Source: Desulfobulbus propionicus DSM 2032
Lineage (GTDB): Bacteria > Desulfobacterota > Desulfobulbia > Desulfobulbales > Desulfobulbaceae
NCBI RefSeq assembly: GCF_000186885.1
Contig: NC_014972.1
Location: 90,001-122,000, forward strand
Length of the DNA: 32,000 bases
Reading direction: 5' to 3'
Shown here one piece after another: positions 9,886-28,770 of this stretch (position 1 is the first letter of the stretch; each line of letters starts with the position of its first letter). The position numbers and the translations under genes are program-made. The notes under the pieces were generated by a model. The model saw only the letters and a list, made by a program, of their open reading frames with translations, was not told where the DNA came from and did no database searches.

Positions 9886-10236
9886 TCACTCCGACGGGCG
9901 CTCCTCGACCACCCGCAAATACTCCTCGATCTCCCGGGGAGTGTAGTAGCGGAAGTGGATGCGGTGGCAGAGTTTGTCGGTGAAGTCGGAGAAGGCCATG
10001 ACGATCTCGCGTCCCTCGGCCATCAGGGCCTCGCCTTCCTCGTAGGAGATGCCGCCCATCTCGCCGAGCCGCCCCTTGAAGTTGGCATAGGCCAGATCGA
10101 ACTGGCGCAGGATGTTACACAGGGTCGCGCCCAAGGGCGAGTTGATGAGCAGCACCCGCGAGCCCCGTTCCTTGACCAGGCTGATCTTGCGCTCCTGGAT
10201 CTCCTGCGACGAGAGCCGCTGCTTTTCTTCCGCCAT
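9886..10236 (-). CDS. 116-aa hypothetical protein; last gene of the five-gene operon
   Basis: GGGAG lies 6 nt upstream of the ATG at 10236 and the gene starts 18 nt after the upstream stop. Balanced amino-acid composition. No recognisable motif. Confidence 0.6.
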   Translation of the reverse strand: MAEEKQRLSSQEIQERKISLVKERGSRVLLINSPLGATLCNILRQFDLAYANFKGRLGEMGGISYEEGEALMAEGREIVMAFSDFTDKLCHRIHFRYYTPREIEEYLRVVEERPSE

Positions 10237-10254
10237 GATGGACTCCCTGGTTGG

Positions 10255-14468: not shown

Positions 14469-14775
14469 GCGAGGTGCCCCCTGGAGCGGTTAGGGATGCG
14501 GCCGGAAAGTCCGGTCTCATCCCTTTTTTCAGGGGGGAGGACATCTGGGAAATTTTGGATGAGTCCTAGGCATGCGAGGAGCGTTGTCAGACGACGAATG
14601 CTGAACCCCTGGATTCTGTCAATAGGGGAAGGAAACAGCACGGCTCGCCATGCGATTGAACGGTGTCGTTCCCGGGTACCGTTGAAAAAGCCGGGGTTCT
14701 TTGTTGGTGATGCAATTGGCCGTGTAGGAAGCGATGCCGTCTTCGGTGCGCGCCTCGTTGCTGCCTTCCTGCTGA

Positions 14776-15933: not shown

Positions 15934-16619
15934 GGGTCCATCCTTTTGATGTGGTTGTCTGCTCGCGAAGTTCGTTCAATGGGCCGCCCGATTCCACGCC
16001 CCCTGCCTGCGCGAGCGAGCCGGTGGGCAAGTTGGACAATGACGAACAAGCAATTTCCGGGCGCGGTCATTGCCGGGTGTATTGGTCGTGTGCATCGCTG
16101 TCGCCGCGTTGTCCGATGGCTCTGGGGCAGGCACCGCTGGGGGCAATCGCCAAAGATCGCCCCCATCCCAACAACACGGTCGGTGTGCCCTTCCTGTCGA
16201 TTGGACCTGGGACCATCCTCAGCAGACCCGGCTGGTGTTCGATGCGGGAGTGGGACAAGGCGCCACCAGGATAACATGGCTAGGCCGCCTTGGCAGGCAG
16301 TATGTCCACAGGAGCGCCAACAAGTGATGTCCCTTGCAGGGCTTGCCACCGCTGCTGGTCGCCTGGTGGCTTCTTGGCGCCGTACGCTCGGTGGCAGGTG
16401 ATCCGTGGGCAGGGCGGTTGGTTGGTCCTGGCACTGATCGAGTCCAGCAGAGAAGATTCGACGGCACACCACATCCTCTTCCCAAGTCCGACCCATCAAC
16501 TGCTTTCATCTTGCCAGCCGTTTGCTCCTGATCGCTCATATTGAGAGCCTTGGTTTTTCCTCAGTTCTCAAAATCAGAACAGAAAAATCTGTTTTTCCGT
16601 TATTTTTTTTTCGCCAATC

Positions 16620-16635
16620 CGGCACAGGATTAGCA
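16620..16635 (+). promoter_or_regulatory. Candidate sigma-54 (-24/-12) promoter upstream of the methyltransferase
   Basis: cGGCACaggatTaGCa has GG-N10-GC spacing and one mismatch in the -12 TTGC. It is preceded by an A/T-rich tract (16570-16612). Confidence 0.45.
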
Positions 16636-16714
16636 GTTAAGAATGAGTTCCGAGAAGAGTGAAAAGGGCGGAACAGGGTTGGCTCGGCGACCATTGCCGG
16701 CCGACCGCATCTGT

Positions 16715-16760
16715 GCCGACGGGCCGCTCCGGGTTGAGAGACGGCCCGTCGGTGCTTTTT
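16715..16760 (+). terminator. Intrinsic-terminator-like hairpin in the methyltransferase leader
   Basis: GCCGACGGGCCG / CGGCCCGTCGGT (11 of 12 bp) with a 15-nt loop, followed by GCTTTTT. It lies about 190 nt upstream of ATG 16951. Confidence 0.5.
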
Positions 16761-16950
16761 GGCACAAGAAGCAAAAACGGTGGCGCCCTGTCGCCACGCC
16801 GCCCGCCCCTGGCCGGACAAAGGGTCTGCCGCCGGGGAACAAAGCGCCCATTGCAGGGGAGCAAGGGCACCGCCCTCTCCAGACCACGCCTCGCCCTCAC
16901 CCGACACCAGCAGACCAGCTCGCGCCATCCATGACGAGACCACCGGCACC

Positions 16951-18462
16951 ATGATCGAGATCGACTACACCCACGGCTACTACCAAGAACTCAACCCGCT
17001 CCGGGCCAGGCTGGCGCTGCTGTTCGCGGGCCTCCATTGCCCGATCATGGACACGGCCTGCGAACTGGGCTTTGGCCAGGGGATGAGCATCAACCTGCAT
17101 GCCGCCGCCTCCCCGGTCGCGTGGCACGGCACGGACGCCAACCCGGCGCACGTCGCCTTTGCCCGCGAGATCGCGCGGGCCGCTGGCAGCGAGGCCCGGC
17201 TGGCGGCCGAACCGTTTGCCGAATACGCGGCCCGCCGCGATATGCCCGAATTCGACTTCATCGGCCTGCATGGGGTGTGGAGTTGGGTCTCGGCGGAGAA
17301 CAAGGCCCTCCTGGTTGATTTCATCCGCCGCCAGCTCAAACCGGGAGGCGTGGTCTACGTGAGCTACAACACCCTGCCCGGTTGGGCCGCGTTCGCGCCT
17401 ATGCGGCACCTGCTGGTCACGCACGCGGCGACCCTCGGCGCGGCCGGCCAGGGCATCGTCGAGCGTATCGACCAGGCCCTCGAATTTACCGAGGCCCTGC
17501 TGGCCGCAAAGCCCCTGTTCGCCGATCACCACCCCACCGCGGGACAGAAGCTGGCGCAGTGCAAGCGGCAGGATCGAGCCTACCTGGCGCACGAATTCTT
17601 CACCCGCGACTGGCAGCCCATGCACTTTGCCGAGATGGCCGCTAGCCTGGCGCCGGCCCTGCTCGACTTTGCCTGCTCGGCCCATTTTCCGGACCATCTC
17701 GACATGGTCAACCTCAACCAGGAGCAGCGGGCCTTTTTGGCGGAAATCCCGGATCCGGTTCTGCGCGAGGGGGTGCGGGACTTCTTTGTCAACCAGTGGT
17801 TCCGCCGCGACTACTGGGTCAAAGGGATGCGACGCCTACCCCCGGTCCGCCAAGCCGAACTGCTCACCGAGGCGCGGCTGGTGCTGCAGACCCCGCGCGC
17901 CGAGGTGGGCCTGCAGGTTCGAGGGGTGCTGGGGACGGCCGAGATGGACGGACGTATCTACGGACCGCTGCTCGACCAGCTGGCTGACCATCGACCGCGC
18001 AGCCTGGGCCAACTTGAGCGAAGTGTGTGCACCCCGGAGCTGACTCGAGCCCACCTGCACGAGGCGGTGCGGATCCTGGTCGCAGCCGGGCACCTGGCCC
18101 CGGTCCAGGAAGAGGCCGCAGTCAAGCGGGCGAGAAAACACACCGACCGCTGCAATGCCCACCTGCTGCACCAAGCTGGCTGCAGCGATGCGGTCGCCAT
18201 CCTCGTCTCACCGGTGACCGGCGGCGGCGTGCCGGTGGACCGTGTCGAGCAGCTGTTCCTGCTGGCCCTGACCCAGGGGCGCAGGCAGCCAGCGGAATGG
18301 GCTGCCCGGGCCTGGGAGACCCTGGTCGCGGAGGGGCGGCAACTCCTCCGCGAAGGTGTGGCCCTGGCGACCGCGGCGGACAACCTGGACGAACTCCATG
18401 CCCTGGCCGATCGTTTTGCGGCCCGGCGGCTGCCGGTCCTGCAGGCCCTGCAGGTGGTGTGA
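16951..18462 (+). CDS. Class I SAM-dependent methyltransferase with a C-terminal 'methyltransferase regulatory domain'
   Basis: Start placed at the internal ATG 16951 (MIEIDYTHGYYQELNP...). ACELGFGQGMS (SAM motif I), FDFIGLHGVWSWVS, LKPGGVVYVSYNTLPGW. The Pro/Ala/Arg-rich 64-aa upstream extension was rejected. Confidence 0.8.
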   Translation: MIEIDYTHGYYQELNPLRARLALLFAGLHCPIMDTACELGFGQGMSINLHAAASPVAWHGTDANPAHVAFAREIARAAGSEARLAAEPFAEYAARRDMPEFDFIGLHGVWSWVSAENKALLVDFIRRQLKPGGVVYVSYNTLPGWAAFAPMRHLLVTHAATLGAAGQGIVERIDQALEFTEALLAAKPLFADHHPTAGQKLAQCKRQDRAYLAHEFFTRDWQPMHFAEMAASLAPALLDFACSAHFPDHLDMVNLNQEQRAFLAEIPDPVLREGVRDFFVNQWFRRDYWVKGMRRLPPVRQAELLTEARLVLQTPRAEVGLQVRGVLGTAEMDGRIYGPLLDQLADHRPRSLGQLERSVCTPELTRAHLHEAVRILVAAGHLAPVQEEAAVKRARKHTDRCNAHLLHQAGCSDAVAILVSPVTGGGVPVDRVEQLFLLALTQGRRQPAEWAARAWETLVAEGRQLLREGVALATAADNLDELHALADRFAARRLPVLQALQVV

Positions 18463-18507
18463 CCCGTGGCCGGACCAAGCCGACGAACCCTTTGCCGTGA
18501 GACGACC

Positions 18508-18693
18508 ATGCCGACAAACACCGATCTGTCCTCCGTACCCGAGGGCGAGAACTTCCCGGCCGCGATGGCGGCGGACAGGTACCGCCAGTCCCGGCTGGGT
18601 GGTCCGCGGGTCATCCTCTACCTGCTCGCGGCCGACTTGGTGGTTGTGGCGGCCGCCATGGTGGGGGTGGTCTGCTGGTGGCTGCTGCGCTAG
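18508..18693 (+). CDS. 61-aa tail-anchored microprotein, copy 1
   Basis: ATG 18508. C-terminal TM LGGPRVILYLLAADLVVVAAAMVGVVCWWLLR. A paralogue with the same conserved C-terminal half sits at 21156-21329. The SD is weak. Confidence 0.45.
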   Translation: MPTNTDLSSVPEGENFPAAMAADRYRQSRLGGPRVILYLLAADLVVVAAAMVGVVCWWLLR

Positions 18694-18946
18694 CGGCCGT
18701 AGTGGCCTGTCATCATGACCGGGCAAGGGTTCGCCATCGGTCATTGTGCGAGCCAACGGCGTGCCAAGAATCCCCCAGAACGAGCCAGGTGGGCTGCCAG
18801 GACGCCTGGACGAAGGGTTCGTCCTGTTCGGCGGCGGCCGAGGAGCGACCCAAAAAACACTATCATGGCAAGATACGCAGCAGGCCGGATAGCCGACTTG
18901 GAGCAGAGACCGGCTTCGCGGAAAAGAACGCTTCCTCCCCCGCGAT

Positions 18947-18961
18947 TGGCATCGATCTTGG
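18947..18961 (+). promoter_or_regulatory. Sigma-54-like promoter with a degenerate -12 element, upstream of repeat gene A
   Basis: TGGCATCGATCTTGG is the paralogous site of 21588-21602 but has GG instead of GC at -12. Confidence 0.35.
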
Positions 18962-19050
18962 CCGGCCCCTGATGCTGAGGGCGAAAGTCCCCAGACGGTA
19001 CATTCGCCAGCAAACGGCGGGCCACTAAAAACAATCAAATGGAGCGAACA

Positions 19051-20852
19051 ATGAAGAAGCGATTTGTAGCCATCAGTCTCACCTTGGGCTCGCTGGCCCT
19101 GGCCGGCGGAGCCCAGGCCGAAACCCTGGTTGTCACTCAGAAGGTGACCGTGGGCAGTAACACGACCGTGACCCAGGGGGATCAGAACACTGCTGCCATT
19201 CAGGCCATGAACGCGGTCAATACTCTCGGTACGCTCAACGGGACCAGCCAGAAGGTGGAGATGGGCACCTACACCCTGGGCTTGAGCCAAACGGGGGCGA
19301 CAACAACCACTTCGTCCCAGGCCGCGAACACCGTCAAAGCCGACACCATAAGCGCAGCCTTTTCGCAGGAGGTGAACAGTACAGCCGCTGCCAGCGCCAT
19401 CGCGCTGACCCAGTCGGCGCAGGGCGTAGCGAATGTCCAGGCCCTCAACCTGGCTGGTGCAACCACGGTCGTTGGCAGTTCGGGTGCGTTCGCCCAGAAA
19501 GTGACGCCGACCGGGGCCGCTGGCGACATCACCTGACCCAGGTCACCGCCACGGGAAAGGACAGTGTGCAGGCGGCCAACGTCCTGGCCGGCACAACTGT
19601 TACCAGTGCGACGCAGGCAGTGGATAACGACACCACCGGCGCGGGGGATATCACCCTGGCACAGGCCACTGGTACCAGCAACATCTCCCAGGCCGTCAAT
19701 CACACCGAAGCAGGGACCATCACAGCCCTCAACCAGAACATCAACACCGTGGAGCTGGTGCTCGGTCAGACCGGCGGGAGCAAAAACTCGCAGGTGGGCA
19801 ACCATGCCAAGGCCCTCACCAATGTAACGACTCTCGCTCAGCAGACGAAAGCTTCCCGCAAGATCGACATGGATCAGGTCACTGGTGGCGATGGCAATCT
19901 GCAGGCACTCAACGCCGCCGAGGTGACCAAGGTCAGCGGTACGGTCTCCCAGACAGTCAGCACCGGCCTTACGAACATCGATCTCAAACAAGAACAGCAA
20001 ACAAGCAGCCAACAGACCGCCAACTACCTGACCTCTCCCGGCACCGTGGCCTCTGTCACCCAGGTCTCCTACTATAACAGCCCCAGAATAGCGACCCTGC
20101 TCCAGGACAACACGACTACCGCCCAGCAGGCCTTGAACTTCATAGAAATGACAGGTGGGGCTGATAAGCTCACCAAGGGAACCCAGACCGTGGGCCTTGC
20201 CACCCTGGACATGGGCCAGGGTGAGACGGGCGCCAACAGCGGCTCCGACCAGGCGGTGAACCTGCTCTTCTTGGACGACAACCTCGTCTTGGCAACGCAA
20301 ACAGTGACAGCGGACATTGATCTCACCCAGGCAAAAGGCGCGGATAACACCCAGGCCGTCAACTCCGTCTCCGGTAAGAACATCACCACCAAACTGACCC
20401 AGACGGTCACTGGCGTCAGCGATAACATGACCCAGGGCGGCGATGGGGCGAGCAATAACTTCCAGGCCGGCAACTTCCTGGATGTCGAGTATGCGAATGG
20501 CACCATCGCTTCCGTCCAGCAGAACTACAACGCCACCACCTTAGCGCGCATGAGGCAGGATGGGATCACTTCGGGCGTGCAGGGGCTGAACGTGATCGAC
20601 GCCTCGCGGTCGGGCGTAAAAGTGACCAGCGCGGACCAGAATGTGGTTGTACCGGCGCTGACCATGCGACAGGGGGAGAGCAAAGGGACTGCGACCAGCG
20701 TCCAGGCGGGGAACACGGTGCTCGCCGGATCCACCGCGGTTGGCGGCAAGGTTGATCAGGACGTGCTCGTCGCCACCACCCTGGCCATGACCCAGGCGAA
20801 CGCCACCACATCCACCCAGGCGGCCAACTTTACCGGCAACCGGCCGCGGTAA
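19051..20852 (+). pseudogene. Secreted Gln/Asn-ladder repeat protein, paralogue A, split by a 1-nt frameshift (frame 1 to the TGA at 19534-19536; continues in frame 0 from 19533)
   Basis: GGAG lies upstream of ATG 19051. Signal peptide MKKRFVAISLTLGSLALAGGAQA. Collinear with paralogue B throughout. ACC-TG here versus ACC-CTG in B explains the frame break. It could be a sequencing error or a genuine mutation. Confidence 0.7.
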
Positions 20853-20904
20853 CCCACTGACCAGGAGCCCGCCCAGGGGGATCGGGGCTGGCGTTGTTGT
20901 TGTC

Positions 20905-21111
20905 GTGGGCGAGAGAACGAGCGCCGACACCCTGGCGTGGCCGTTGGCGGCCCGGGCGGCCTGGGAGACCCTGGCCGCGGAGGGGCGGCAACTCCTTCGC
21001 GAGGGGGCGCCCCCGGCAATCGCGGCCGACAACCGGAACGAACTGCACACCCTGGCCGACCGATTTGCCGCCCGGCGGCTGCCGGTCCTGCAGGCCTTGC
21101 TGGTGGTGTGA
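20905..21111 (+). pseudogene. Relic of the methyltransferase C-terminus (duplication scar)
   Basis: AARAAWETLAAEGRQLLREG....AADN.NELHTLADRFAARRLPVLQALLVV parallels the last ~55 aa of 16951-18462. The rest of the gene is missing. Confidence 0.75.
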
Positions 21112-21155
21112 CCACAGCCCGGGCCGAGCCGACGAACCTCACTCGAGAGACGACC

Positions 21156-21329
21156 ATGCAGACCAATGCCGACCTGTGTTCCGTTCTTGAAAGCGAGACC
21201 GTCCCGACCGCGACGGATGGGGAACGCCGCGACCCACTGGGTGGTCCGCGGGTCATCCTTTACCTGCTGGTGGCCGACCTGTTACTCGTGGCCGCGGTCG
21301 GGGTGACCGCCTGGTGGCTGCTGCGCTAG
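21156..21329 (+). CDS. 57-aa tail-anchored microprotein, copy 2
   Basis: MQTNADL...LGGPRVILYLLVADLLLVAAVGVTAWWLLR, paralogous to 18508-18693 and in the same relative position. Confidence 0.45.
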   Translation: MQTNADLCSVLESETVPTATDGERRDPLGGPRVILYLLVADLLLVAAVGVTAWWLLR

Positions 21330-21587
21330 GGGGGCAGGGCGCGGACTGTCGTCTTGAGCGGTGGCGGAGGGAACCACCGTTCATTCTGAAAGACGGAAGC
21401 CGTGCGCAAGAACCTCGGAGCCGACCCATCAGCATCGGAGGAACGGCGATCCAGAATGCCGCACAAGTCGGAGGTGGTCGCGGAAAAGAGAAAAAATTCA
21501 GAAAAAAAGGAGGATGGGAAAGGAGCCGGCTTGTTGCCAGCGGTCTACAAGAAACTAAAAAGAAAAATGTCGTCTCTGTTCTCTGCC

Positions 21588-21602
21588 TGGCATCGATGTT
21601 GC
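21588..21602 (+). promoter_or_regulatory. Sigma-54 (-24/-12) promoter for repeat gene B
   Basis: TGGCATCGATGTTGC fits TGGCAY-N5-TTGC with exact GG-N10-GC spacing. It lies 82 nt upstream of ATG 21684. Confidence 0.6.
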
Positions 21603-21683
21603 CTTAGCGCTGACAGAGAGAAACGACAGCAGGAGTTACATCACCACAACACATAGCACCAAACCCTAAAAAAGGAGCAAAGT

Positions 21684-23474
21684 ATGAAAAAACGTTATGT
21701 CGCAATCAGCCTGACCCTGGGGTCGCTGGCCCTGGCCGGTGGAGCCCAGGCCGACACCTGGGACGTGACCCAGAAGGTGACCGTGGGCGCAAACACGACC
21801 GTGACCCAGGGGGACGGGAACACTTCCGCCACCCAGGCGATGAACGCCATCGACGTGGAGACCCTCAATGGCACCAGCCAGGCGGTTGAGATGGGGACTT
21901 TTACCTTGACCTTGACGCAAACGGGTGCGTCAACGGCTACTTCGAACCAGGCCGCCAACTATGTTCAAGCGGACACTATTTCTAAAGCCTTTTCGCAGGA
22001 CGTGAACAGTGCGGCGGCAGCCAGCGCCATCGCGCTGACCCAGTCGGCCGTCGGCACTGCCAATATCCAGGCGCTCAACATGGCCGACGGCGGAACGGTT
22101 GGCAGTACGGGAATATTCTCTCAGGAAGTCACCCCTACCGGAGCGGCAGGCGACATTACCCTGACGCAGACCACTACAATGGGCGCTGACAGTGTGCAGG
22201 CAGCGAACTATATCAACGGCACGACCATCACAAGTGCAATCCAGACAGTCGACAACGACAACACCGGTAACGGGGATATTGCCCTTGTGCAGCCGATCGG
22301 GACAGGAAGCATCACCCAGGCGGTCAACTATGCCACGGCTGAAACCATCACCTCGCTTGCGCAGAATATTAAAACCGTGGATCTCGTGCTTGGTCAGGCC
22401 GGCGGGACCAGCAATGTGCAGGTGGGGAACTATGCGCAGGCCACTACAGTCGTTGATACGCTTCTGTCACAGAAGACTGACGCTTCCGGCATGATCGACA
22501 TGGATCAGATCACCGCTGGCTCCGGCAATCTGCAGGCGGTCAATGCCGCGGATGTAAAATCGGTTACCGGCGCTGTCACCCAGGCGGCAACGACCGGCGC
22601 CACGAACATCAATCTTAACCAGAACAACCAGACTAACAGCCAGCAGTTCGTCAACTACCTGACCTCGACCGGAACGGTGGCCTCCGTCACGCAGGATTAC
22701 CTGAATAGCGGTAAGACCGCCACTCTTGTTCAGGACATGGCTACCGCCTCACAACAGGCACTGAACGCCATTGAAATGACTGGTGGCGCTGACGTGCTGA
22801 CCAAGGGAACGCAGACCGTGACCCTCGCCACCTTGAGCTTGAGCCAGGGGGAAACTGCCGATAACACGGGCTCCAGCCAGGCGGCTAACCTGCTTCTGTC
22901 GGGGAACGACATTGCTGAAGCGTCCCAGACAGTGACGGCGGATATCGATGTGACCCAAGAGCTGGGGACCGGTAACCTTCAGGCCGTTAACCTCGCAGCT
23001 GGCATTGACATAACCACCAGCCTCACCCAGACAATCAATGGTACATCCGATACTTTCGAGCAGGGCGGCACCGGCGCCGCAACCAACACCCAGGCTGGCA
23101 ACTACCTGGATGTCGGCGCAACTGGTACGGTTAAATCGGTGGTACAGGACTATAGCGCGACCGCCTCTGTCCTCATGGATCAGGATGATATCACGAGTGG
23201 CGTGCAGGGGTTGAACGTTATTGACGCCTCGGCATCTGGCGTGACGGTGACCAGTGCGGACCAGAACGTCACCGTTCCCTCCCTGACCATGCACCAGGGA
23301 CGGGACGTCGGGACGACAACCAGCGTCCAGGCCGGCAACGCGGTGATCACAGATGCCGTCGCCACCGGAGGCGCGGTCAATCAGGATGTAAGTGTCACCA
23401 CCCTGGCCATGACCCAGGCGAATGGCAACAAATCCATCCAGGCCGCCAACTATGTCGGCTCCATGCCCAATTAA
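21684..23474 (+). CDS. 596-aa secreted Gln/Asn-ladder repeat protein, paralogue B (candidate fibre or amyloid-like subunit)
   Basis: AAGGAG SD. Signal peptide MKKRYVAISLTLGSLALAGGAQA|DT. There are 15 Q-x-x-N motifs (mostly QAxN) spaced 34-43 aa apart (mean 38.2). T/Q/A/N/G-rich, no Cys. Confidence 0.85.
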   Translation: MKKRYVAISLTLGSLALAGGAQADTWDVTQKVTVGANTTVTQGDGNTSATQAMNAIDVETLNGTSQAVEMGTFTLTLTQTGASTATSNQAANYVQADTISKAFSQDVNSAAAASAIALTQSAVGTANIQALNMADGGTVGSTGIFSQEVTPTGAAGDITLTQTTTMGADSVQAANYINGTTITSAIQTVDNDNTGNGDIALVQPIGTGSITQAVNYATAETITSLAQNIKTVDLVLGQAGGTSNVQVGNYAQATTVVDTLLSQKTDASGMIDMDQITAGSGNLQAVNAADVKSVTGAVTQAATTGATNINLNQNNQTNSQQFVNYLTSTGTVASVTQDYLNSGKTATLVQDMATASQQALNAIEMTGGADVLTKGTQTVTLATLSLSQGETADNTGSSQAANLLLSGNDIAEASQTVTADIDVTQELGTGNLQAVNLAAGIDITTSLTQTINGTSDTFEQGGTGAATNTQAGNYLDVGATGTVKSVVQDYSATASVLMDQDDITSGVQGLNVIDASASGVTVTSADQNVTVPSLTMHQGRDVGTTTSVQAGNAVITDAVATGGAVNQDVSVTTLAMTQANGNKSIQAANYVGSMPN

Positions 23475-23487
23475 CCTATTTTCTGGT

Positions 23488-23706: not shown

Positions 23707-24150
23707 ATGCACAATCAGTGGCGAACACGTCCACCGGCACCACCCGTGCCTGGTCGACGCCCATGGAAAACCATCAGCCGGTTGAAGGCCTTTGCGCTCG
23801 TGGTGGCAGTCGTGCTGCTCGCACCGGACCCGGCCGCCAGCTCGATCCGCAACCGGCTGTCCCCCTCCTACCCGAGCATCCCGCCGGACTACACCGTGCT
23901 GCAGCCTGGCCGTATGGTGGCCGAGGCCAAGGTCGATTTCCCGGCCTACTACGTCGACCGCACCAACGGCTTCCGGGTGACCGCCCCGGATGGCCGACAA
24001 TTCGTGGTCGACAATGTCGAAAAGCCCAAATGCGCTTTCTACGGAACCTACATCAACAGCGAGGAGAACGCCCTCTCTAGTCCGGGCGCGGGCATGACCA
24101 TCAACAGTTCCGTCTACGTGGGGGAGGTAAATTTTGAAAACTGCAGGTAA
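23707..24150 (+). CDS. 147-aa secreted or membrane-anchored hypothetical protein (possible secretion accessory factor)
   Basis: GGAGGA lies upstream of ATG 23707. Hydrophobic segment AFALVVAVVLLAP after a basic N-terminus. Overlaps the next gene by 17 nt. Confidence 0.55.
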   Translation: MHNQWRTRPPAPPVPGRRPWKTISRLKAFALVVAVVLLAPDPAASSIRNRLSPSYPSIPPDYTVLQPGRMVAEAKVDFPAYYVDRTNGFRVTAPDGRQFVVDNVEKPKCAFYGTYINSEENALSSPGAGMTINSSVYVGEVNFENCR

Positions 24151-25165
24151 TACGTTTCGTCGATCGGCCATCAGGGCAGGCGCCGTTCTCTGTGCGCTGG
24201 CGTTTTTGTCCGGATGCGCCAGCGAGTACCGGACCAAGGTCAGCACTGATTTCAAGGAGAAGCCCAAGGTCAGCCAGACGAACATGTCCGGCGCCATCGC
24301 CTGCATGGCCAACACCCTGCAGCACAGCGACACCGCCAGCGCCTACATCCTTTTGGTGCGCGACGTCAAGGACGGCACGGTCAAGGACAGCGACCTGACC
24401 GATGGGCCGCTGTCGGACGCCGGCCGGATCATGCTGCTCAACACCCTGAGCGAGCATCTCTATCCGCACGCCGGCCTGGTACCGGACACCTTTCCCTTCA
24501 TCTACCTGGCAACCGGCCGGGAGGATGTTGGCCTGAACCGGTTCGGCCTGCCGTCGCCGGAGAACATGCAGCAGTTCCTGGGCATCTACGAGCCGATTAT
24601 CCAGGCGGCGCGCAAGAAGAAGAACCTGCCGCCGGTGGGCAACATCGTGCCGCTGGTGATCAGCGCCCAATTTTCCCGCTTCGATTCGGACAACGCCGCC
24701 CAGGACGGCATCGCGCACAATATCGGCACCCGCACCAAGCAGCTGGCGGAAAACGAGGAAGATGACCGCTGGCGCAAGTTCGCCGGCGAGGCGAGCGTGG
24801 GCCTGACCTCCTCGGCCCGGTTGATCTCACTGGTCATCAACCTGATAGACCCGCGCAACAACTTGGTGGTTGCCTCGCAGTCGTTTGACCTGATTTTCTA
24901 CCGCGACAACAAAACCTACCGCCTGCGCGCCGCGCTCGGCGAAGGCTACTACGGGTTCTCCAAGGACAACGTGGTGGTCGAAGGCGTACACAGCGCCCAG
25001 AAGCTGCTCCTCGACGCCGCCGCCCTGTGGATCCTCAACAAGGCCTACGGTGACCAGGAGCGGTTCGCGACCTGCTTCAGCCCGGAGGAACAGCAGGTGA
25101 CCCTGTCACCGGTGGAGTTCCACCAGAAGAAGGAAGAACCGCCCACCGTGGGGAAAACGAAATGA
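24134..25165 (+). CDS. CsgG/HfaB-like outer-membrane lipoprotein (candidate secretion channel)
   Basis: TTG start with GGAGG 6 nt upstream. Lipobox AFLSG|C. Family-like blocks by eye: ILLVRDVKDGT...SDAGRIMLLNTL and LVISAQFSRFDS...LISLVINLIDPRNNLVVASQSF...HSAQKLLLDAAALWILN, compared with E. coli CsgG VSVYNIQDETG...ATAMLVTAL and MVEGSIIGYES...IAVNLRVVNVSTGEIL. Confidence 0.5.
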   Translation: MKTAGNTFRRSAIRAGAVLCALAFLSGCASEYRTKVSTDFKEKPKVSQTNMSGAIACMANTLQHSDTASAYILLVRDVKDGTVKDSDLTDGPLSDAGRIMLLNTLSEHLYPHAGLVPDTFPFIYLATGREDVGLNRFGLPSPENMQQFLGIYEPIIQAARKKKNLPPVGNIVPLVISAQFSRFDSDNAAQDGIAHNIGTRTKQLAENEEDDRWRKFAGEASVGLTSSARLISLVINLIDPRNNLVVASQSFDLIFYRDNKTYRLRAALGEGYYGFSKDNVVVEGVHSAQKLLLDAAALWILNKAYGDQERFATCFSPEEQQVTLSPVEFHQKKEEPPTVGKTK

Positions 25166-25929
25166 TCGGGTGGGGCCACACCTGGTGGATGGCGGCTGTG
25201 GTGGCTCTGCTGCTTTTCGCGGACGAGCCTGCCGCGGCGGACAGCTGGACAGTGACCCAGAAGGCGACGATCGGCAGCCCGACCATCCTGGCCCAGGGCG
25301 ATAACCAGGGATCAACCCAGGCTATCAATGCCATTATGCTCGGGGACGGGGGGACGGTGGTCAAGGCGACGCAGACCGTCGAGGTGGCCGGCGGCCTGAC
25401 CCTCAGCCAGGCCGGGGGCAGCGGCAGCCGCCAGGCCGGCAACCTGGTCGAGGCGGGAACGATCACCGAGGCGTTGCAGACGCTGTCCGCCGGCGCGACA
25501 ACGATTGTGCAGACCACTGCCGGCGACGATAATTGGCAGGCCCTGAACATGGCCAATGCCACCGGAGGCGGTGGCGGTATCGGCTCGATCGGGCAGACCG
25601 CCACGGTCGAGTCGCTCAATTTCGCCCTTGCCGGCGGTGAAGGCAACCGCCAGGCCGGCAACCTCGTGACGGGATCCTCGGCCGGCAGTTCGATAACCCA
25701 GACGCTGACCTGCAGTGGCACGGTGACTTACGCCGACAACTATGTGATCGCCGGAGTGAATAACCTGCAGGCCGGAAACGCGGTGTTCGGGGGCACAAAT
25801 GTCGCCAGTGTGACCCAGGCGTTCACGGCCAACGGTGTGGAGGTGACCGCACCGCCTGAAATCGATGGAGCCAACAACATCAAGGCTGCCAATTACCTGG
25901 AGACGGGCCATGGTTCGCCCGATCCCTGA
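25162..25929 (+). CDS. 255-aa secreted Gln/Asn-ladder repeat protein, short paralogue C
   Basis: The ATG overlaps the CsgG-like stop (ATGA). The N-terminus DSWTVTQKATIGSPTILAQGDNQGSTQAINAI parallels B. Six QAxN/KAAN motifs are spaced 35-39 aa apart. Confidence 0.8.
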   Translation: MIGWGHTWWMAAVVALLLFADEPAAADSWTVTQKATIGSPTILAQGDNQGSTQAINAIMLGDGGTVVKATQTVEVAGGLTLSQAGGSGSRQAGNLVEAGTITEALQTLSAGATTIVQTTAGDDNWQALNMANATGGGGGIGSIGQTATVESLNFALAGGEGNRQAGNLVTGSSAGSSITQTLTCSGTVTYADNYVIAGVNNLQAGNAVFGGTNVASVTQAFTANGVEVTAPPEIDGANNIKAANYLETGHGSPDP

Positions 25930-25999: not shown

Positions 26000-26476
26000 A
26001 TGAACAGACGCTTCCTCCTCCTGATTGTTCTGCTGCTCCTGCTGGCCAGCCAGTCCGTTCTCGCGCAGGAACCGCCGCAATCCCTGCTCGACCGGCAGGT
26101 ACGGTCGGTCTATTACGAGACCGACAGTTACGGCTCGCAGCCGCTGCGAGTCACCTTGGGTGAACTCATCAAGCACGGCCTGTTGCCTGGTGACTGGGAC
26201 CTGGTAGCGGACACGGTGTGGCACTACATCGTCCCCACCGGCGACCACGGAGGTCGTGTGCGCTTCGAGTTCACGGTGATCACCGACCCGCAATGGCGCC
26301 ACCTGTTCACTAACGAAGTAATTGTCACCGGCCTCCAGGTGGGGGGGCGGGACCTCCCCAGGCCGGAAATTTGGGCCGTTCTGCTGCCTTTGGCTGTCGA
26401 GGTGCGCGCCCGGGTACGCCTGCCTGCCGAGTCGCAGGCCTCCACTCTGGCATGGAAGGCGGTACTCAAACCGTAG
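26000..26476 (+). CDS. 158-aa secreted hypothetical protein
   Basis: ATG 26000 is preceded by AGGGGG. Signal peptide MNRRFLLLIVLLLLLASQSVLA|QE. Confidence 0.6.
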   Translation: MNRRFLLLIVLLLLLASQSVLAQEPPQSLLDRQVRSVYYETDSYGSQPLRVTLGELIKHGLLPGDWDLVADTVWHYIVPTGDHGGRVRFEFTVITDPQWRHLFTNEVIVTGLQVGGRDLPRPEIWAVLLPLAVEVRARVRLPAESQASTLAWKAVLKP

Positions 26477-26576: not shown

Positions 26577-27227
26577 ATGGACAAGAGCGTATTTCTGAAC
26601 AGACGCCGGCCAGAACGGCGCGTGCTCCTCTTCTTCGCCCTGCTTGCCGGCATCCTGGCCGGACCGTTTCAGGGCGAGGCGTCTGCCGCGGATGCGAAGG
26701 GCAATTTCGCGGTGCGCGGCGTTGGCTCGCTGACCTGTCCCCAGCTGGTCAGCTCCCTTACCGCCAAGGACGAACAGGCCAAGCGGGAGTCCATCCTCCT
26801 CTACATAAGTTGGATCGACGGTTATCTCAGCCACGTCAATCGGGGCGAGTCCGCTACCTTTGACATTGTCCCCTTCGTGCAAACCCAGGACATGCTGGCT
26901 GTGGTGCTCACCCAATGCCAGACGCGCCAGGACGTCCTGGTGGAAACGGTCCTCCTCCAGACCCTCGGCGCACTGGCACCGGCCCGGGTGCACACCGATT
27001 CACCCGTGGTCGCGGTGCGTGTGGGTAAACGCGAAGGCAACCTGCGCAAGGAAACCATTCTAGCCATTCAGAACAAGCTGATCGAACGAAATCTGTTCAA
27101 GGGAAGCGCCAAAGGAGAGTTCAACGACGCTTCGCGCAAGGCCCTGGCCGCTTTTCAGAAGTCGGTCAAGCTCGATGGAACCGGGTTCCCGGACGTCGAC
27201 ACCATTATTCGGCTGCTGCTCTCCTGA
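26577..27227 (+). CDS. Secreted protein with a C-terminal peptidoglycan-binding (PG_binding_1-like) domain
   Basis: AAGGA SD. Signal peptide ...LLAGILAGPFQGEASA. C-terminus ILAIQNKLIERNLFKGSAKGEFNDASRKALAAFQKSVKLDGTGFPDVDTIIRLL is typical of PG-binding repeats. Confidence 0.7.
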   Translation: MDKSVFLNRRRPERRVLLFFALLAGILAGPFQGEASAADAKGNFAVRGVGSLTCPQLVSSLTAKDEQAKRESILLYISWIDGYLSHVNRGESATFDIVPFVQTQDMLAVVLTQCQTRQDVLVETVLLQTLGALAPARVHTDSPVVAVRVGKREGNLRKETILAIQNKLIERNLFKGSAKGEFNDASRKALAAFQKSVKLDGTGFPDVDTIIRLLLS

Positions 27228-27306
27228 TTTCCCGCACCAAACTCCCCTGCCCCTCCGTCCAGCTGGTGGGGCCACCTGTCACAACCCATCTATCAAGCAT
27301 AGAAAC

Positions 27307-27804
27307 ATGAGAAATAATCTGCCCTGCGCCGGCGTCCTGATGGCCGCCATCGGACTCCTGATGGTAACCGTCTTGGTAGACGTGCAGGCCGACCCTCGCA
27401 CGCGGACTATCGAGCGCGCCGAGAGCTACCGCCTCCGTGCCGAGGCCGGCGACGTCGATGCGCAGACCGAATACGGTTTTCTGCTGCTGGAAGGCATTTC
27501 GGTGGATAAAGATACACGTCAGGGGCTGCAGTTGCTGAAAAAGGCGGCTCGAAGGGGTTCGACCCGGGCCGCAAAACTGCTGGAACGACTGGAGGCGACC
27601 GGGCGCTACAAAGGGGCGGGTACTCAAACGCCGGCCCAGGTCGAGACCCCGGTCCAGGATATTTTGGCAGACGATTGCTGTGATGCTCCGGGGCAGGGCG
27701 CCAGTCTGAACGACCTTCAGCGCCAGGCCGAGCAGGGACTGGTACCGCGGCCATCGGTCCGTGAACAGCGACCTTGGCGGCCGCTGGCAGACCGCAACGA
27801 GTAG
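27307..27804 (+). CDS. Secreted or anchored Sel1-like repeat protein
   Basis: Hydrophobic N-terminus GVLMAAIGLLMVTVLV. AEAGDVDAQTEYGFLLLEGISVDKDTRQGLQLLKKAARRGSTRA resembles a Sel1/TPR-like repeat. Confidence 0.6.
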   Translation: MRNNLPCAGVLMAAIGLLMVTVLVDVQADPRTRTIERAESYRLRAEAGDVDAQTEYGFLLLEGISVDKDTRQGLQLLKKAARRGSTRAAKLLERLEATGRYKGAGTQTPAQVETPVQDILADDCCDAPGQGASLNDLQRQAEQGLVPRPSVREQRPWRPLADRNE

Positions 27805-28442: not shown

Positions 28443-28615
28443 ACCGTGGTGGCTCTCCAGAACAAGCTGATCGATTGCATTCTGCTCAAAGAGAGCACTC
28501 CGGCGGATTCAAAGATGCCCGCGCGTGGTCCTGGCCGCGTTGCAGAAATGGGTCAAGTACGACGGGACTGGGTTCCCGGACGTCGATACGATCAAGCGGC
28601 TGCTACTTCCCGGGT
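28443..28615 (+). pseudogene. Frameshifted duplicate of the PG-binding C-terminal domain of 26577-27227
   Basis: DNA blocks CAGAACAAGCTGATCGA and GGTTCCCGGACGTCGA are shared with 27070-27210. Peptides LQNKLIDCILLKE and (other frame) FKDARAVVLAALQKWVKYDGTGFPDVDTIKRLLL. Confidence 0.7.
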
Positions 28616-28770
28616 CTTTCCAATCTTGCTGTCGACCTCCCGAAGCGGTACCGGTCCGTTGCGCACCGACTGGACCGGAAAGGCGACAGTTTCTTGCCAC
28701 CCTTTCCCGCCACGTATAACGATCGGCGCATCTTAAAAAAATCTAGTTCATCCGGATATTACCACTCCTT

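What the first reader, a model, noticed from the sequence alone, without database searches (positions are those of the whole stretch)
21684..23474. Repeat architecture: 15 units with a 38-aa period, each carrying three conserved Gln and a QAxN signature
I counted directly from the translation. The Asn of the Q-x-x-N motif falls at residues 54, 92, 132, 175, 215, 249, 287, 324, 361, 402, 436, 473, 511, 552 and 589, with spacings of 34-43 and a mean of 38.2. Examples are SNQAANYV, NIQALNMA, SVQAANYI, ITQAVNYA, NVQVGNYA, NLQAVNAA, SQQFVNYL, SQQALNAI, SSQAANLL, NLQAVNLA, NTQAGNYL, GVQGLNVI, SVQAGNAV and SIQAANYV. Each unit also has a hydrophobic-x-hydrophobic-x-Q segment about 9-10 residues before the motif (LTQ, LVQ, LGQ, MDQ, LNQ, LSQ, MHQ, MTQ) and another Q about 15-19 residues after it. 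That gives three Gln-bearing segments per ~38 residues, as expected for a three-sided beta-helix turn (inference). There is no Cys, there are few charged residues, and the signal peptide looks cleavable. Paralogue C (25162-25929) has six such units with Asn at 56, 94, 129, 167, 206 and 244.
Basis: seen in the sequence. Interest (0 to 1): 0.75.

Follow-up and report, generated by a model that had tools for sequence, protein, structure and literature searches.

The report
Curli-like fibre subunit with new repeat
The repeats are real: this Desulfobulbus gene encodes a secreted, glutamine/asparagine-laddered beta-solenoid protein in a conserved four-gene cassette with a very divergent relative of the curli secretion channel CsgG, so it looks like an undescribed cousin of the curli amyloid fibre system.

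Summary
ORF 21684-23474 (Desulfobulbus propionicus Despr_0105, 596 aa) has a Sec signal peptide followed by 15 units of 34-43 aa. Each unit carries three in-register Gln and a Q-A-x-N motif. A unit model built from units 2-8 finds all seven later units. Family-wide conservation sits almost only on Gln, Asn and one Trp.

AlphaFold2 gives a confident all-beta model (pLDDT 90.9) with three strand segments per unit and no significant PDB neighbour. No Pfam or NCBIfam family matches, including the curlin repeat.

The context explains it. In 13 loci (12 independent) from Desulfobulbus-type contigs and Thiotrichales-type Gammaproteobacteria the gene order is the same: major repeat protein, small two-Cys secreted protein, lipoprotein, shorter repeat paralogue. 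The predicted fold of the lipoprotein matches only CsgG strongly (Foldseek E 1e-8), and a profile comparison weakly supports homology.

Best reading: a curli-like (CsgG/HfaB-type) export and assembly system for a new class of beta-solenoid surface fibre or adhesin. Polymerisation is inferred, not shown. I rate it a new variant of a known kind.

The parts
21684..23474 (+). CDS of the major repeat protein (Despr_0105, 596 aa). It has 15 Q/N-ladder units and no Cys.
   Evidence: ORF list. Exact match to ADW16299.1 / WP_015722847.1. 29 homologues in the word-indexed search and 200 clusters at 50% identity.
21673..21677 (+). Shine-Dalgarno-like AGGAG, 6 nt upstream of the ATG.
   Evidence: Read from the sequence.
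21684..21752 (+). Sec-type signal peptide, aa 1-23, with predicted cleavage AQA|DTW.
   Evidence: Sequence pattern. Residues 1-22 have pLDDT below 50. In family members the conserved D-S/T-W-x-V/I-T-Q follows the signal directly.
21756..21845 (+). Unit 1 (aa 25-54), N-terminal and shortened. It carries invariant W26, Q30, Q42, Q51 and N54.
21846..21959 (+). Unit 2 (aa 55-92): Q66, Q79, Q89, N92.
21960..22079 (+). Unit 3 (aa 93-132): Q105, Q120, Q129, N132.
22080..22208 (+). Unit 4 (aa 133-175): Q147, Q162, Q172, N175.
22209..22328 (+). Unit 5 (aa 176-215): Q187, Q203, Q212, N215.
22329..22430 (+). Unit 6 (aa 216-249): Q227, Q238, Q246, N249.
22431..22544 (+). Unit 7 (aa 250-287): Q263, Q275, Q284, N287.
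22545..22655 (+). Unit 8 (aa 288-324): Q300, Q313, Q321, N324.
22656..22766 (+). Unit 9 (aa 325-361): Q337, Q350, Q358, N361.
22767..22889 (+). Unit 10 (aa 362-402): Q377, Q388, Q399, N402.
22890..22991 (+). Unit 11 (aa 403-436): Q415, Q425, Q433, N436.
22992..23102 (+). Unit 12 (aa 437-473): Q449, Q460, Q470, N473.
23103..23216 (+). Unit 13 (aa 474-511): Q488, Q500, Q508, N511.
23217..23339 (+). Unit 14 (aa 512-552): Q527, Q538, Q549, N552.
23340..23450 (+). Unit 15 (aa 553-589): Q567, Q578, Q586, N589. It is followed by the conserved C-terminal Y-V-G tail (aa 590-596, nt 23451-23471).
23707..24150 (+). CDS of a small secreted two-Cys protein (Despr_0106, 147 aa, about 100 aa mature). It lies directly upstream of the lipoprotein gene and overlaps it by 17 nt, which is the position csgF holds in curli operons.
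   Evidence: Start and RBS. Present in 12 of the 13 cassette loci that I scored, L010 being cut at its 5' end. Invariant C64, C101, G43 and D57. No Pfam, PDB, CsgE, CsgF or CsgC similarity.
24134..25165 (+). CDS of a CsgG-like outer-membrane lipoprotein (Despr_0107, 343 aa, lipobox FLSG|C, TTG start with GGAGG 7 nt upstream).
   Evidence: AF2 model. The Foldseek top 22 PDB hits are all CsgG, E down to 1.1e-8, prob 1.0. hhalign against 15 CsgG/HfaB proteins gives P 8.3e-5 over 146 columns. No Pfam or NCBIfam hit.
25162..25929 (+). CDS of the short repeat paralogue ('paralogue C', Despr_0108, 255 aa). It has a signal peptide, the DSWTVTQ start, four good and two degenerate units, and a divergent C-terminus ending ..KAANYLE...
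   Evidence: In an unsupported NJ tree of the C-terminal 80 aa, the downstream short paralogues of other loci fall outside a cluster that holds all the major subunits.
19039..20852 (+). Paralogue A, a second major-subunit gene that is split by a 1-nt deletion near 19532 into ORFs 19039-19536 and 19566-20852 (Despr_0102). Restoring one C gives 604 aa with 15 units.
18401..23476 (+). Tandem duplication of about 2.63 kb (18401-20854 and 21050-23476, 74-88% nt identity). Each copy carries a methyltransferase 3' end or remnant, a 57-61 aa TM ORF and a major-subunit gene.
   Evidence: The close relative L016 has a single copy.
26577..27227 (+). PG_binding_1-domain protein downstream of the cassette. 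It is a possible lineage-specific accessory.
   Evidence: Pfam E 9e-6. Conserved downstream only in the Desulfobulbus-like loci L015 and L016.

Best explanation
Despr_0105 is the major subunit of a curli-like (CsgG/HfaB-type, 'type VIII') surface-fibre or adhesin system built from a previously undescribed repeat. Proposed mechanism, step by step. (1) Sec exports the precursor, and signal peptidase cuts after AQA, so the mature chain starts at D-T-W-D-V-T-Q. (2) The Cys-free, low-charge, Thr/Ala/Gly/Gln/Asn-rich chain stays unfolded in the periplasm, perhaps held or guided by the small two-Cys protein Despr_0106. (3) It crosses the outer membrane through an oligomeric channel of the CsgG-like lipoprotein Despr_0107. 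(4) Outside the cell it folds into a beta-solenoid in which each ~38-aa unit forms one coil of three strand segments. The three invariant Gln and the Q-A-x-N Asn of successive coils stack into ladders that hold the core together. (5) The mature protein starts with a 'c'-type strand and ends with a 'b'-type strand, so it is a whole number of coils. Subunits can therefore stack head to tail, and the short paralogue Despr_0108, with its degenerate last units, acts as nucleator, cap or cell anchor. Shown here: the repeats, the family-wide Gln/Asn/Trp conservation, the confident all-beta model, the conserved four-gene cassette, and the CsgG-like fold of the lipoprotein. Inferred: transport through that lipoprotein, extracellular folding, polymerisation, and the roles of the small protein and the short paralogue.
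For: Repeat architecture. Invariant columns among 28 homologues are almost only Gln and Asn, plus M1, W26, S87, A471, A550 and G592. In 127 more distant members the columns at or above 90% are only W, Q and N. In 875 distinct units, Q1 is about 100% and Q2 is 93%. AF2 gives pLDDT 90.9 and pTM 0.91, all-beta, with three strand segments per unit. The PDB hit listed first, although not significant, is Pontibacter CsgA 8c50, followed by beta-helices. The cassette order major - small - lipoprotein - short paralogue recurs in the window, L001-L009 and L011. L010 and L012 are partial. L009 is the same contig stretch as L002, so there are 12 independent loci. They come from Desulfobulbus-type contigs and from Thiothrix, Leucothrix, Cocleimonas and other Gammaproteobacteria. 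Lipoprotein: lipobox Cys; Foldseek top 22 hits all CsgG (E 1.1e-8 to 1.8e-5, prob 1.0, TM by target 0.35-0.59), with the next folds (HpaA, FlgT, LpoB, PelC) weaker. hhalign against 15 CsgG/HfaB proteins gives P 8.3e-5 with the lipobox and core strands in register, against P 0.26-0.53 for unrelated control pairs. UniProt already labels a Thiothrix orthologue 'Curli production assembly/transport comp...'. The small gene occupies the csgF position. Precedent for CsgG-type channels that export amyloid-like surface proteins: curli (PMC10192328) and Caulobacter HfaA/HfaD via HfaB (PMC6707917).
Against: No experiment exists, and no paper mentions these genes. There is no sequence similarity between the repeat and curlin repeats. 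The small protein shows none to CsgC, CsgE or CsgF. The lipoprotein model is only moderately confident (pLDDT 72.7). TM-scores to CsgG are modest. Pfam and NCBIfam CsgG models do not hit, and the hhalign probability is only 61%. The putative first transmembrane hairpin carries an acidic insert (ENEEDDRWRK), and channel formation was not modelled. AlphaFold tends to give confident solenoids for any regular repeat, and I could not inspect the coordinates. With 15 coils the protein could work as a monomeric rod, so polymerisation is not required by the data. UniProt's automatic name for the target is 'S-layer protein'.
Confidence: 0.58

Rival explanations
1. Monomeric surface rod or coat protein. 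The protein is exported by the same CsgG-like channel and folds into a beta-solenoid about 7 nm long. It stays a monomer or forms a two-dimensional layer (adhesin or S-layer-like coat), tethered through the short paralogue, and does not grow into an amyloid-like fibre.
For: Fifteen coils already make a long rod. UniProt's automatic name is 'S-layer protein'. Caulobacter HfaD, exported via the CsgG-like HfaB, is described as having limited similarity to S-layer proteins and adhesins and acts as an anchor rather than a long fibre (PMC6707917). Family members vary widely in unit number, from 1 to 15, as adhesin stalks do.
Against: No SLH or other S-layer or adhesin domain is detected. There is no tip or binding domain, and the whole mature chain is repeats. 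The N- and C-terminal edge motifs (DSWxVTQ ... QAxNYVG) are strictly conserved, and the chain is a whole number of coils. Both fit a conserved subunit-subunit joint. A dedicated short paralogue is conserved in the operon, as CsgB is in curli.
Confidence: 0.24
2. The lipoprotein is not a translocon. It shares only the common alpha/beta lipoprotein fold of CsgG, HpaA, FlgT, LpoB and PelC and acts as a periplasmic or outer-membrane scaffold. The repeat proteins then stay in the periplasm or leave by another route.
For: HpaA, FlgT, LpoB and PelC also appear among the Foldseek hits. Pfam and NCBIfam CsgG models do not match. Model pLDDT is 72.7, and the hairpin regions score 47-64. A PG-binding protein sits downstream in Desulfobulbus-type loci.
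Against: CsgG hits are about 1000-fold better in E-value than the other folds and cover 250-318 columns, including the long hairpins. Profile similarity to CsgG/HfaB runs in the correct register. The lipoprotein gene lies between two secreted Q/N-repeat genes in every locus. No other secretion component is conserved nearby.
Confidence: 0.1
3. It is an ordinary, merely divergent curli operon. On this reading Despr_0105 and Despr_0108 are true CsgA and CsgB orthologues, and the system is already covered by the known curli family.
For: The CsgG-like lipoprotein. Q/N ladders. UniProt names of two relatives mention curli or curlin. Sleutel et al. describe 'degenerate' CsgA classes with long insertions (PMC10192328).
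Against: No member of the family (17 + 127 proteins scanned) matches Curlin_rpt. The unit profile against E. coli curlin repeats scores no better than the reversed control. The unit is 38 aa with three strand segments, against 23 +/- 5 aa and two strands (PMC10192328). No CsgE, CsgF or CsgC homologue is present. The Dueholm curli survey lists only one deltaproteobacterial system, in Desulfovibrionales (PMC3521004).
Confidence: 0.05
4. Chance or compositional artefact: a low-complexity Thr/Ala/Gln-rich ORF without true repeats.
For: Composition is biased (T+S+A+G 48%, Q+N 16%). Ungapped autocorrelation is weak.
Against: The cross-validated unit HMM scores 55 bits against -22 +/- 7 for shuffles of the same composition. 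Self-alignments reach E 5e-40. Homologues occur in two phyla with position-specific Q/N conservation.
Confidence: 0.01

Closest known systems
Curli system of Enterobacteria and others (CsgA/CsgB subunits, CsgG channel, CsgE/CsgF/CsgC accessories; type VIII secretion)
   Same: Sec-dependent, Cys-free subunits made of imperfect repeats with stacked Gln/Asn. The predicted fold is a beta-solenoid. A major and a shorter minor paralogue share one locus. The outer-membrane lipoprotein has a CsgG fold, and a small secreted protein is encoded directly upstream of it, where csgF sits.
   Different: The repeat is 34-43 aa with three strand segments and three Gln plus QAxN, instead of about 23 aa with two strands and the N-x-h-x-h-x-Q kernel. 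There is no Curlin_rpt match. The lipoprotein is about 10% identical to CsgG, about 65 aa longer, and missed by Pfam and NCBIfam. No CsgE, CsgF, CsgC or CsgD homologues are present. All genes lie on one strand in one cassette (PMC10192328).
Caulobacter holdfast anchor HfaA / HfaB / HfaD
   Same: This is a second known case in which a CsgG-like lipoprotein (HfaB) is needed to place amyloid-like, SDS-resistant surface proteins (HfaA, HfaD) on the cell (PMC6707917). Thiothrix and Leucothrix, which carry the new cassette, are known from general microbiology to attach by holdfasts and form rosettes. That point rests on my own knowledge.
   Different: I had no Hfa sequences, so I made no direct comparison. 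NCBIfam gave no hit. HfaA is a small curlin-like protein, whereas here the subunits are large 38-aa-repeat proteins. D. propionicus is not known to make a holdfast.
Pseudomonas Fap functional amyloid (FapC subunit, FapB, FapF channel)
   Same: Secreted Q/N-rich imperfect repeats, a major plus a minor subunit, and a dedicated outer-membrane exporter in one operon. FapC repeats are longer than curlin repeats (own knowledge and the abstracts listed).
   Different: Fap uses a trimeric beta-barrel (FapF), not a CsgG-like lipoprotein. FapC has three repeats separated by linkers, not a continuous 15-unit array. No Pfam family matched any cassette protein.
Right-handed parallel beta-helix proteins (pectate-lyase fold, autotransporter passengers such as pertactin and Ag43, TpsA/EtpA)
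   Same: Three strand segments per coil and long rod-like solenoids. They fill most of the non-significant Foldseek list.
   Different: All hits have E at or above 0.59 and TM at or below 0.26. Those proteins lack a strict sequence repeat and invariant Gln ladders. They are exported by type V systems, which are absent from the cassette.

Membership tests
Curlin (CsgA/CsgB, Pfam Curlin_rpt PF07012) | Significant match to the curlin repeat profile | tested here: not met
   No Curlin_rpt hit for the target, its paralogues or 8 + 127 family members, even at E up to 10 or 0.1. PDB sequence search, which includes CsgA entries, finds nothing. hhalign against E. coli CsgA and CsgB gives P 0.1-0.14. 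The unit profile against 10 E. coli curlin repeats scores the same as the reversed control.
Curlin (CsgA/CsgB, Pfam Curlin_rpt PF07012) | Repeat of about 23 +/- 5 aa forming one strand-arc-strand arch with the kernel N-$-h-$-h-$-Q-X-G-X-X twice (PMC10192328) | tested here: not met
   Units are 34-43 aa, with a family median of 38. There are three strand segments per unit in the AF2 model. The consensus is h-T-x-h-T-Q-T-V ... h-T-L-T-Q-x-x-G-x-x-N/S-x-Q-A-x-N-x-h.
Curlin (CsgA/CsgB, Pfam Curlin_rpt PF07012) | In-register conserved Gln/Asn (ladder residues), a Sec signal, no Cys | tested here: met
Curlin (CsgA/CsgB, Pfam Curlin_rpt PF07012) | Forms extracellular amyloid fibres (SDS-insoluble, binds Congo red and ThT) | not testable with these tools
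   This needs experiments. No literature exists on these genes.
CsgG/HfaB outer-membrane lipoprotein family (Pfam PF03783) | Lipoprotein signal peptide with a lipobox Cys | tested here: met
   The window protein has ...ALAFLSG|CASE, and the Cys is nearly invariant in 33 homologues. It aligns with the CsgG lipobox Cys.
CsgG/HfaB outer-membrane lipoprotein family (Pfam PF03783) | Match to the family's sequence models | tested here: not met
   No Pfam or NCBIfam hit at E up to 1. No precomputed Pfam domain in any of 58 homologues. HMMER profile against PDB finds no CsgG.
CsgG/HfaB outer-membrane lipoprotein family (Pfam PF03783) | Profile-profile similarity to CsgG/HfaB proteins | tested here: inconclusive
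   hhalign of 33 homologues against 15 CsgG/HfaB proteins gives probability 60.7%, P 8.3e-5, 146 columns and a sensible register. Unrelated control pairs give P 0.26-0.53.
CsgG/HfaB outer-membrane lipoprotein family (Pfam PF03783) | CsgG fold (alpha/beta core plus two long beta-hairpins) | tested here: met
   The AF2 model has pLDDT 72.7. The Foldseek top 22 PDB hits are all CsgG, with E 1.1e-8 to 1.8e-5 and prob 1.0. Moderate model confidence is a caveat.
CsgG/HfaB outer-membrane lipoprotein family (Pfam PF03783) | Oligomeric (nonameric) 36-strand pore with a constriction loop | not testable with these tools
Curli accessory proteins CsgE / CsgF / CsgC | Sequence similarity of the small cassette protein to any of them | tested here: not met
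   hhalign against E. coli CsgC, CsgE and CsgF gives P 0.2, 0.63 and 0.078. Against a 7-sequence CsgF profile P is 0.16, and against a 3-sequence CsgE profile P is 0.56. No Pfam or PDB match. Only the gene position matches csgF.
Caulobacter Hfa holdfast anchor (HfaA/HfaD) | Homology of the repeat proteins to HfaA or HfaD | not tested
   No Hfa sequences were reachable with the tools. NCBIfam gave no hit, but I do not know whether it holds Hfa models.
S-layer proteins (UniProt automatic name of the target) | Recognisable S-layer or SLH domain | tested here: not met
   No Pfam or NCBIfam family of any kind matches. The name appears only as an automatic UniRef label.

The most novel reading that the evidence does not exclude
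This is a third, previously unrecognised class of CsgG/HfaB-dependent extracellular polymer, besides curli and the Hfa anchor. The fibre would be a functional-amyloid-type beta-solenoid whose coil is a 38-aa, three-strand, triple-Gln-ladder unit, arranged in alternating pairs. It would have its own accessory protein and nucleator, and it would be shared by horizontal transfer between Desulfobulbaceae and filamentous or attached sulfur oxidisers (Thiothrix, Leucothrix, Cocleimonas, Thiomargarita). There it may be the proteinaceous attachment or holdfast fibre.
Probability: 0.45. Interest if true: 0.78.

Novelty: new variant of a known kind. Interest (0 to 1): 0.68.

Why it matters
Only two well-characterised dedicated secretion-assembly systems for functional amyloid are known in Gram-negative bacteria, curli and Fap, plus the little-understood Hfa anchor. 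A system that keeps a CsgG-type channel but uses an unrelated repeat would make several questions testable. The repeat here has three strand segments per coil and a different accessory protein.

- What does the channel actually recognise?
- How far can beta-solenoid amyloid design vary?
- How are nucleation and periplasmic safety solved without CsgB, CsgC, CsgE or CsgF?

The system would also give environmentally important sulfur-cycle bacteria (Desulfobulbus, Thiothrix and Leucothrix, known for attachment, rosettes and bulking) a candidate adhesion fibre. It offers a new, highly regular, Cys-free solenoid scaffold and a divergent CsgG-like pore for materials and nanopore work. Finally, it shows that HMM-based curli surveys miss whole branches of this secretion type.

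Tried and rejected
- **Ungapped autocorrelation of the protein.** It gave only a weak peak (z 2.9 at lag 38) because unit lengths vary, so I replaced it with HMM cross-validation and hhalign self-comparison. The first script timed out.
- **Family and structure libraries for the repeat protein.** Pfam, NCBIfam and PDB sequence searches found nothing.
- **Foldseek of the repeat model against PDB.** No significant hit.
- **Sequence searches of the lipoprotein.** The single sequence and the profile against PDB found no CsgG. hhalign against E. coli CsgG alone was not significant. Only the 15-sequence CsgG/HfaB profile gave a moderate signal.
- **Profile re-search of the large protein database with the lipoprotein alignment.** It found no bridging sequences carrying a CsgG Pfam domain.
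- **The small protein.** Comparison with CsgC, CsgE, CsgF, PDB and Pfam found nothing.
- **Regulatory elements.** The Rfam scan, aimed for example at a c-di-GMP riboswitch in the 350-nt leader, found only a tRNA. The sigma-70 promoter and terminator scan was uninformative.
- **tblastn of the lipoprotein against plasmids.** No match.
- **Literature searches.** Searches for the locus tags and for CsgG-like systems in Desulfobulbus or Thiothrix found nothing relevant.
- **Ice-binding or antifreeze solenoid (T-x-T faces).** I considered and rejected this. It has no support from the context, and the conserved residues are Gln and Asn rather than surface Thr.


Full report
**What the window is.** ORF 19566-20852 is 100% identical to Despr_0102 of Desulfobulbus propionicus DSM 2032. 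The finding's ORF, the lipoprotein ORF and 'paralogue C' are exact matches to Despr_0105 (ADW16299.1), Despr_0107 and Despr_0108. All are annotated 'hypothetical protein'. UniRef's automatic names are 'S-layer protein' for Despr_0105 and 'Lipoprotein' for Despr_0107. No paper in the searchable library mentions these locus tags or accessions.

**Checking the observation.** I aligned the units and found three columns in which all 14 full units have Gln:
- Q1 lies 15-19 residues after the previous motif Gln.
- Q2 ends an h-x-h-x-Q strand, 8-11 residues before the next motif Gln.
- Q3 is the Gln of Q-A-x-N.

Forty-five of the 51 Gln occupy these positions. The repeat is not a composition effect:
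- An HMM built only from units 2-8 finds all seven units of the C-terminal half in register. The full score is 55.1 bits, against -22 +/- 7 (max -0.5) for 300 shuffles of that half.
- A profile self-comparison with hhalign, used as a stand-in for HHrepID, gives off-diagonal alignments with E from 5e-40 to 3e-7.
- In 168 family proteins the spacing between successive QxxN motifs peaks at 37-41, with a median of 38.

The protein has no Cys. Charged residues make up 9.9%, but the net charge is -33. The N-terminus is a standard Sec signal (MKKRYVAISLTLGSLALAGGAQA|DTW).

The significant self-alignments fall at offsets of about 75, 157, 233, 307, 386 and 458 residues, which are multiples of two units. 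Unit-to-unit alignment scores are also higher at even than at odd unit distances (difference 7.9, permutation p 0.006). The array is therefore built from alternating unit subtypes, a super-repeat of about 76 aa. Traces of four-unit block duplications remain, for example units 9 and 10 against units 13 and 14.

**The family.** A word-indexed search of 5.8 billion proteins found 29 relatives. An exhaustive profile search of 1.84 billion cluster representatives found 200 at E <= 1e-3 and 81 at E <= 1e-30, with listed lengths of 104 to 868 aa. By the unit HMM, 165 of the 168 family proteins I scanned carry 1 to 15 units.

Conservation is striking. In 28 homologues the invariant columns are Gln and Asn, apart from M1, W26, S87, A471, A550 and G592. 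In 127 more distant members the columns conserved at 90% or more are only W26, Gln and Asn. Over 875 distinct units, Q1 is about 100%, Q2 is 93%, and Ala follows Q3 in 80%. The consensus is x-x-G-T-I-T-S-L-T-Q-T-V-T-x-x-G-x-L-T-L-T-Q-x-x-G-x-x-N/S-x-Q-A-x-N-Y-A.

Mature proteins begin with D-S/T-W-x-V/I-T-Q right after the signal peptide and end with Q-A-x-N-Y-V-G plus a few residues. No family member matches any Pfam family consistently, and none matches Curlin_rpt. NCBIfam and PDB sequence searches are also empty.

**Structure.** AlphaFold2 with the 28-sequence alignment gives mean pLDDT 90.9 and pTM 0.91, and the five models range from 86 to 91. Only the signal peptide is disordered, and the rest is all beta. 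Mapped onto the units, each unit has three strand segments in the order b (x-Q-A-x-N-x-h), c (h-x-x-h-x-Q-x-h) and a (h-x-h-x-Q), with short arcs and a 5-9 residue Gly-containing a-to-b loop.

**Surroundings.** The gene lies in a co-directional cassette:
- the major subunit (21684-23474);
- a 147-aa secreted protein (23707-24150, Despr_0106);
- a 343-aa lipoprotein (24134-25165, Despr_0107), overlapping the small gene by 17 nt;
- the 255-aa short repeat paralogue (25162-25929, Despr_0108), overlapping the lipoprotein gene by 4 nt.

HMM searches of six-frame ORFs from related contigs show the same order in every locus with enough sequence: the window, L001, L002 (identical to L009), L003-L008 and L011. 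L010 and L012 are partial. L015-L017 show it from their called genes.

These loci come from Desulfobulbus-like metagenome contigs and from Candidatus Thiothrix moscowensis, Thiothrix fructosivorans, Leucothrix pacifica, Cocleimonas, Thiotrichaceae and other gammaproteobacterial MAGs. Candidatus Thiomargarita nelsonii contributes a fragment, and an Arenicella xantha protein belongs to the repeat family. Some loci add a third family member. In L003 and L008 this extra member has a lipoprotein-type signal, a long low-complexity linker and only two or three terminal units, which looks like a membrane-tethered anchor or nucleator.

In an NJ tree of the C-terminal 80 aa, all the major subunits (plus the extra L006 member) cluster together and the downstream short paralogues fall outside that cluster. 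The tree carries no support values. This pattern recalls the CsgA/CsgB split.

**The lipoprotein.** It has a canonical lipobox (FLSG|C) and 58 homologues without any Pfam domain. The AF2 model (pLDDT 72.7) is an alpha/beta fold with long beta-hairpins. Foldseek against the PDB returns CsgG for all of the top 22 hits (E 1.1e-8 to 1.8e-5, probability 1.0, 242-318 aligned columns, TM by target 0.35-0.59, about 10% identity). Weaker matches to HpaA, FlgT, LpoB and PelC follow.

Sequence methods see almost nothing. HMMER against PDB is empty, and hhalign against E. coli CsgG alone gives P 0.02. I therefore collected 14 diverse 'CsgG/HfaB family' proteins from plasmid records. Against that profile, hhalign gives probability 60.7%, P 8.3e-5 and 146 columns. 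The lipobox Cys, the first core strand (VRDxxDGT against VYxFxDxTG), the following helix and the strand before the first hairpin all fall in the expected register. Unrelated control pairs score P 0.26-0.53. UniProt already names the Thiothrix fructosivorans orthologue 'Curli production assembly/transport comp...'. I conclude that it is a very divergent CsgG/HfaB-superfamily lipoprotein. The fold evidence is good, the homology evidence is moderate, and pore formation is untested.

**The small protein.** About 100 mature residues are conserved: P-S-Y-P-S-I-P..Y near the N-terminus, G-Y-x-V-x-x-P-D-G-x-x-F-x-V-D-N, P-K-C-A-F-Y, and a C-terminal S-N-V-Y-I-G-E-V-N-F-x-N-C-Q. Two Cys are invariant, presumably a disulfide. 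It has no Pfam or PDB relative and no profile similarity to CsgC, CsgE or CsgF. Its gene position, directly upstream of the CsgG-like gene, is where csgF lies in the canonical operons I fetched. That is a lead for function and not evidence of homology.

**How it most likely works.** The unfolded, Cys-free, low-charge chain is exported by Sec and passes the outer membrane through a CsgG-type diffusion channel. Outside the cell it folds into a solenoid that is stabilised by three Gln ladders and an Asn ladder per coil.

The mature chain begins with a c-type strand (W-D-V-T-Q-K-V fits h-x-h-T-Q-x-V) and ends after a b-type strand (I-Q-A-A-N-Y-V). It is therefore a whole number of coils with strictly conserved edges. 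This is what one expects if subunits stack head to tail as CsgA does (PMC10192328). The short paralogue with degenerate terminal units would then nucleate, cap or anchor the fibre. The small protein would act in the periplasm or at the channel.

Transport, polymerisation and these roles are inferences. I give the whole scheme 0.58 and the monomeric rod or coat variant 0.24.

**Comparison with known systems.** The system works like curli, but it fails the membership tests for the curlin repeat on profile match, repeat length and strand number, and it fails them for CsgE, CsgF and CsgC. Sleutel et al. give 23 +/- 5 aa per curlin repeat and the kernel N-$-h-$-h-$-Q-XGXX twice. Dueholm et al. found curli in only one deltaproteobacterial order, Desulfovibrionales.

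The Caulobacter holdfast anchor is a second precedent for a CsgG-like translocon (HfaB) serving amyloid-like surface proteins (HfaA, HfaD). Many carriers of the new cassette are attached or rosette-forming sulfur bacteria, so an attachment role is attractive, but this is speculative. Fap differs in its exporter. I found no description of this family or cassette in the literature. I therefore rate it a new variant of a known kind: CsgG/HfaB-type secretion with a new subunit class.

**Other features of the window.**
- The major-subunit gene is tandemly duplicated together with about 630 bp of upstream sequence (18401-20854 and 21050-23476, 74-88% identity).
- The upstream copy (paralogue A) has lost one C near 19532. 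It is therefore split into a 165-aa and a 428-aa ORF, and restoring the base gives 604 aa with 15 units. A close relative has a single copy.
- A tRNA-Arg (8474-8550) followed by a phage-type integrase (8769-9761) and a rise in G+C suggests an island boundary upstream.
- HD-GYP-type and HDOD regulators lie upstream in the window and in related loci.

Noticed in passing
window 18401-20854 and 21050-23476: Tandem duplication of about 2.63 kb (74-88% nt identity). It copies the 3' end of the methyltransferase gene (remnant ORF 20905-21111), a small TM ORF and the major-subunit gene. The close relative L016 has only one copy.
   Followed up: yes
window 19039-19536 and 19566-20852 (shift near 19532): Paralogue A (Despr_0102 plus the upstream 165-aa ORF) is one gene broken by a 1-nt deletion (ATCA-CCTGACC against ATTACCCTGACG in the target). 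Adding one C restores a 604-aa protein with 15 units. It could be a pseudogene, a sequencing error or a slippage site.
   Followed up: yes
window 18508-18693 and 21156-21329: Two copies of a 57-61 aa ORF with one TM helix and the conserved motif LGGPRVILYLL..ADL...WWLLR. They lie between the methyltransferase gene and each major-subunit gene. The ORF is also present in L016. Function unknown.
   Followed up: partly
window 8474-8550, 8769-9761, then 10000-19000: tRNA-Arg(CCT) is followed directly by a phage-type integrase, and G+C rises from 0.52 to 0.64-0.69. This may be the edge of a genomic island that contains the cassette. That would fit its patchy distribution in Desulfobulbus and Thiotrichales.
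   Followed up: no
L003 4701-5510 and L008 7688-8479: These loci carry an extra family member with a lipoprotein-type signal (..VSAC / ..TTAC), a long Thr/Ser/Asn-rich linker and only two or three C-terminal repeat units ending ..AVNYMG / ..SWSYVG. It is a candidate membrane-tethered nucleator or anchor.
   Followed up: partly
window 14776-15933 (-); L001 1-1398; L015 2444-3541; L016 262-1419: Response-regulator proteins with HD-GYP-type (HD_5) or HDOD/HD domains lie a few kb upstream of the cassette in the window and in related Desulfobulbus-type contigs. This hints at second-messenger control, as for other biofilm matrix systems.
   Followed up: no
window 26577-27227 (also 28471-28716), 26000-26476, 27175-27804: Downstream secreted proteins: one with PG_binding_1 (conserved in L015 and L016 only, with a second weak copy at 28471-28716), a 158-aa secreted protein with no family, and a Sel1-repeat protein. 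They are not part of the cassette in Gammaproteobacteria.
   Followed up: partly
window 21330-21683: An unusually long (about 350 nt), purine-rich leader lies upstream of the major-subunit gene. It has no Rfam match and no sigma-70-type promoter hit.
   Followed up: partly
window 16759-18462: A 567-aa methyltransferase with the PF10119 regulatory domain lies immediately upstream of the duplicated block. The same neighbour occurs in L016.
   Followed up: no
Database labels of relatives (P0029, P0248, P0214): Automatic UniRef names disagree: 'Curlin associated repeat-containing protein' (Arenicella family member), 'Curli production assembly/transport comp...' (Thiothrix lipoprotein orthologue) and 'S-layer protein' (the target). 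None of them is backed by a Pfam hit here.
   Followed up: partly
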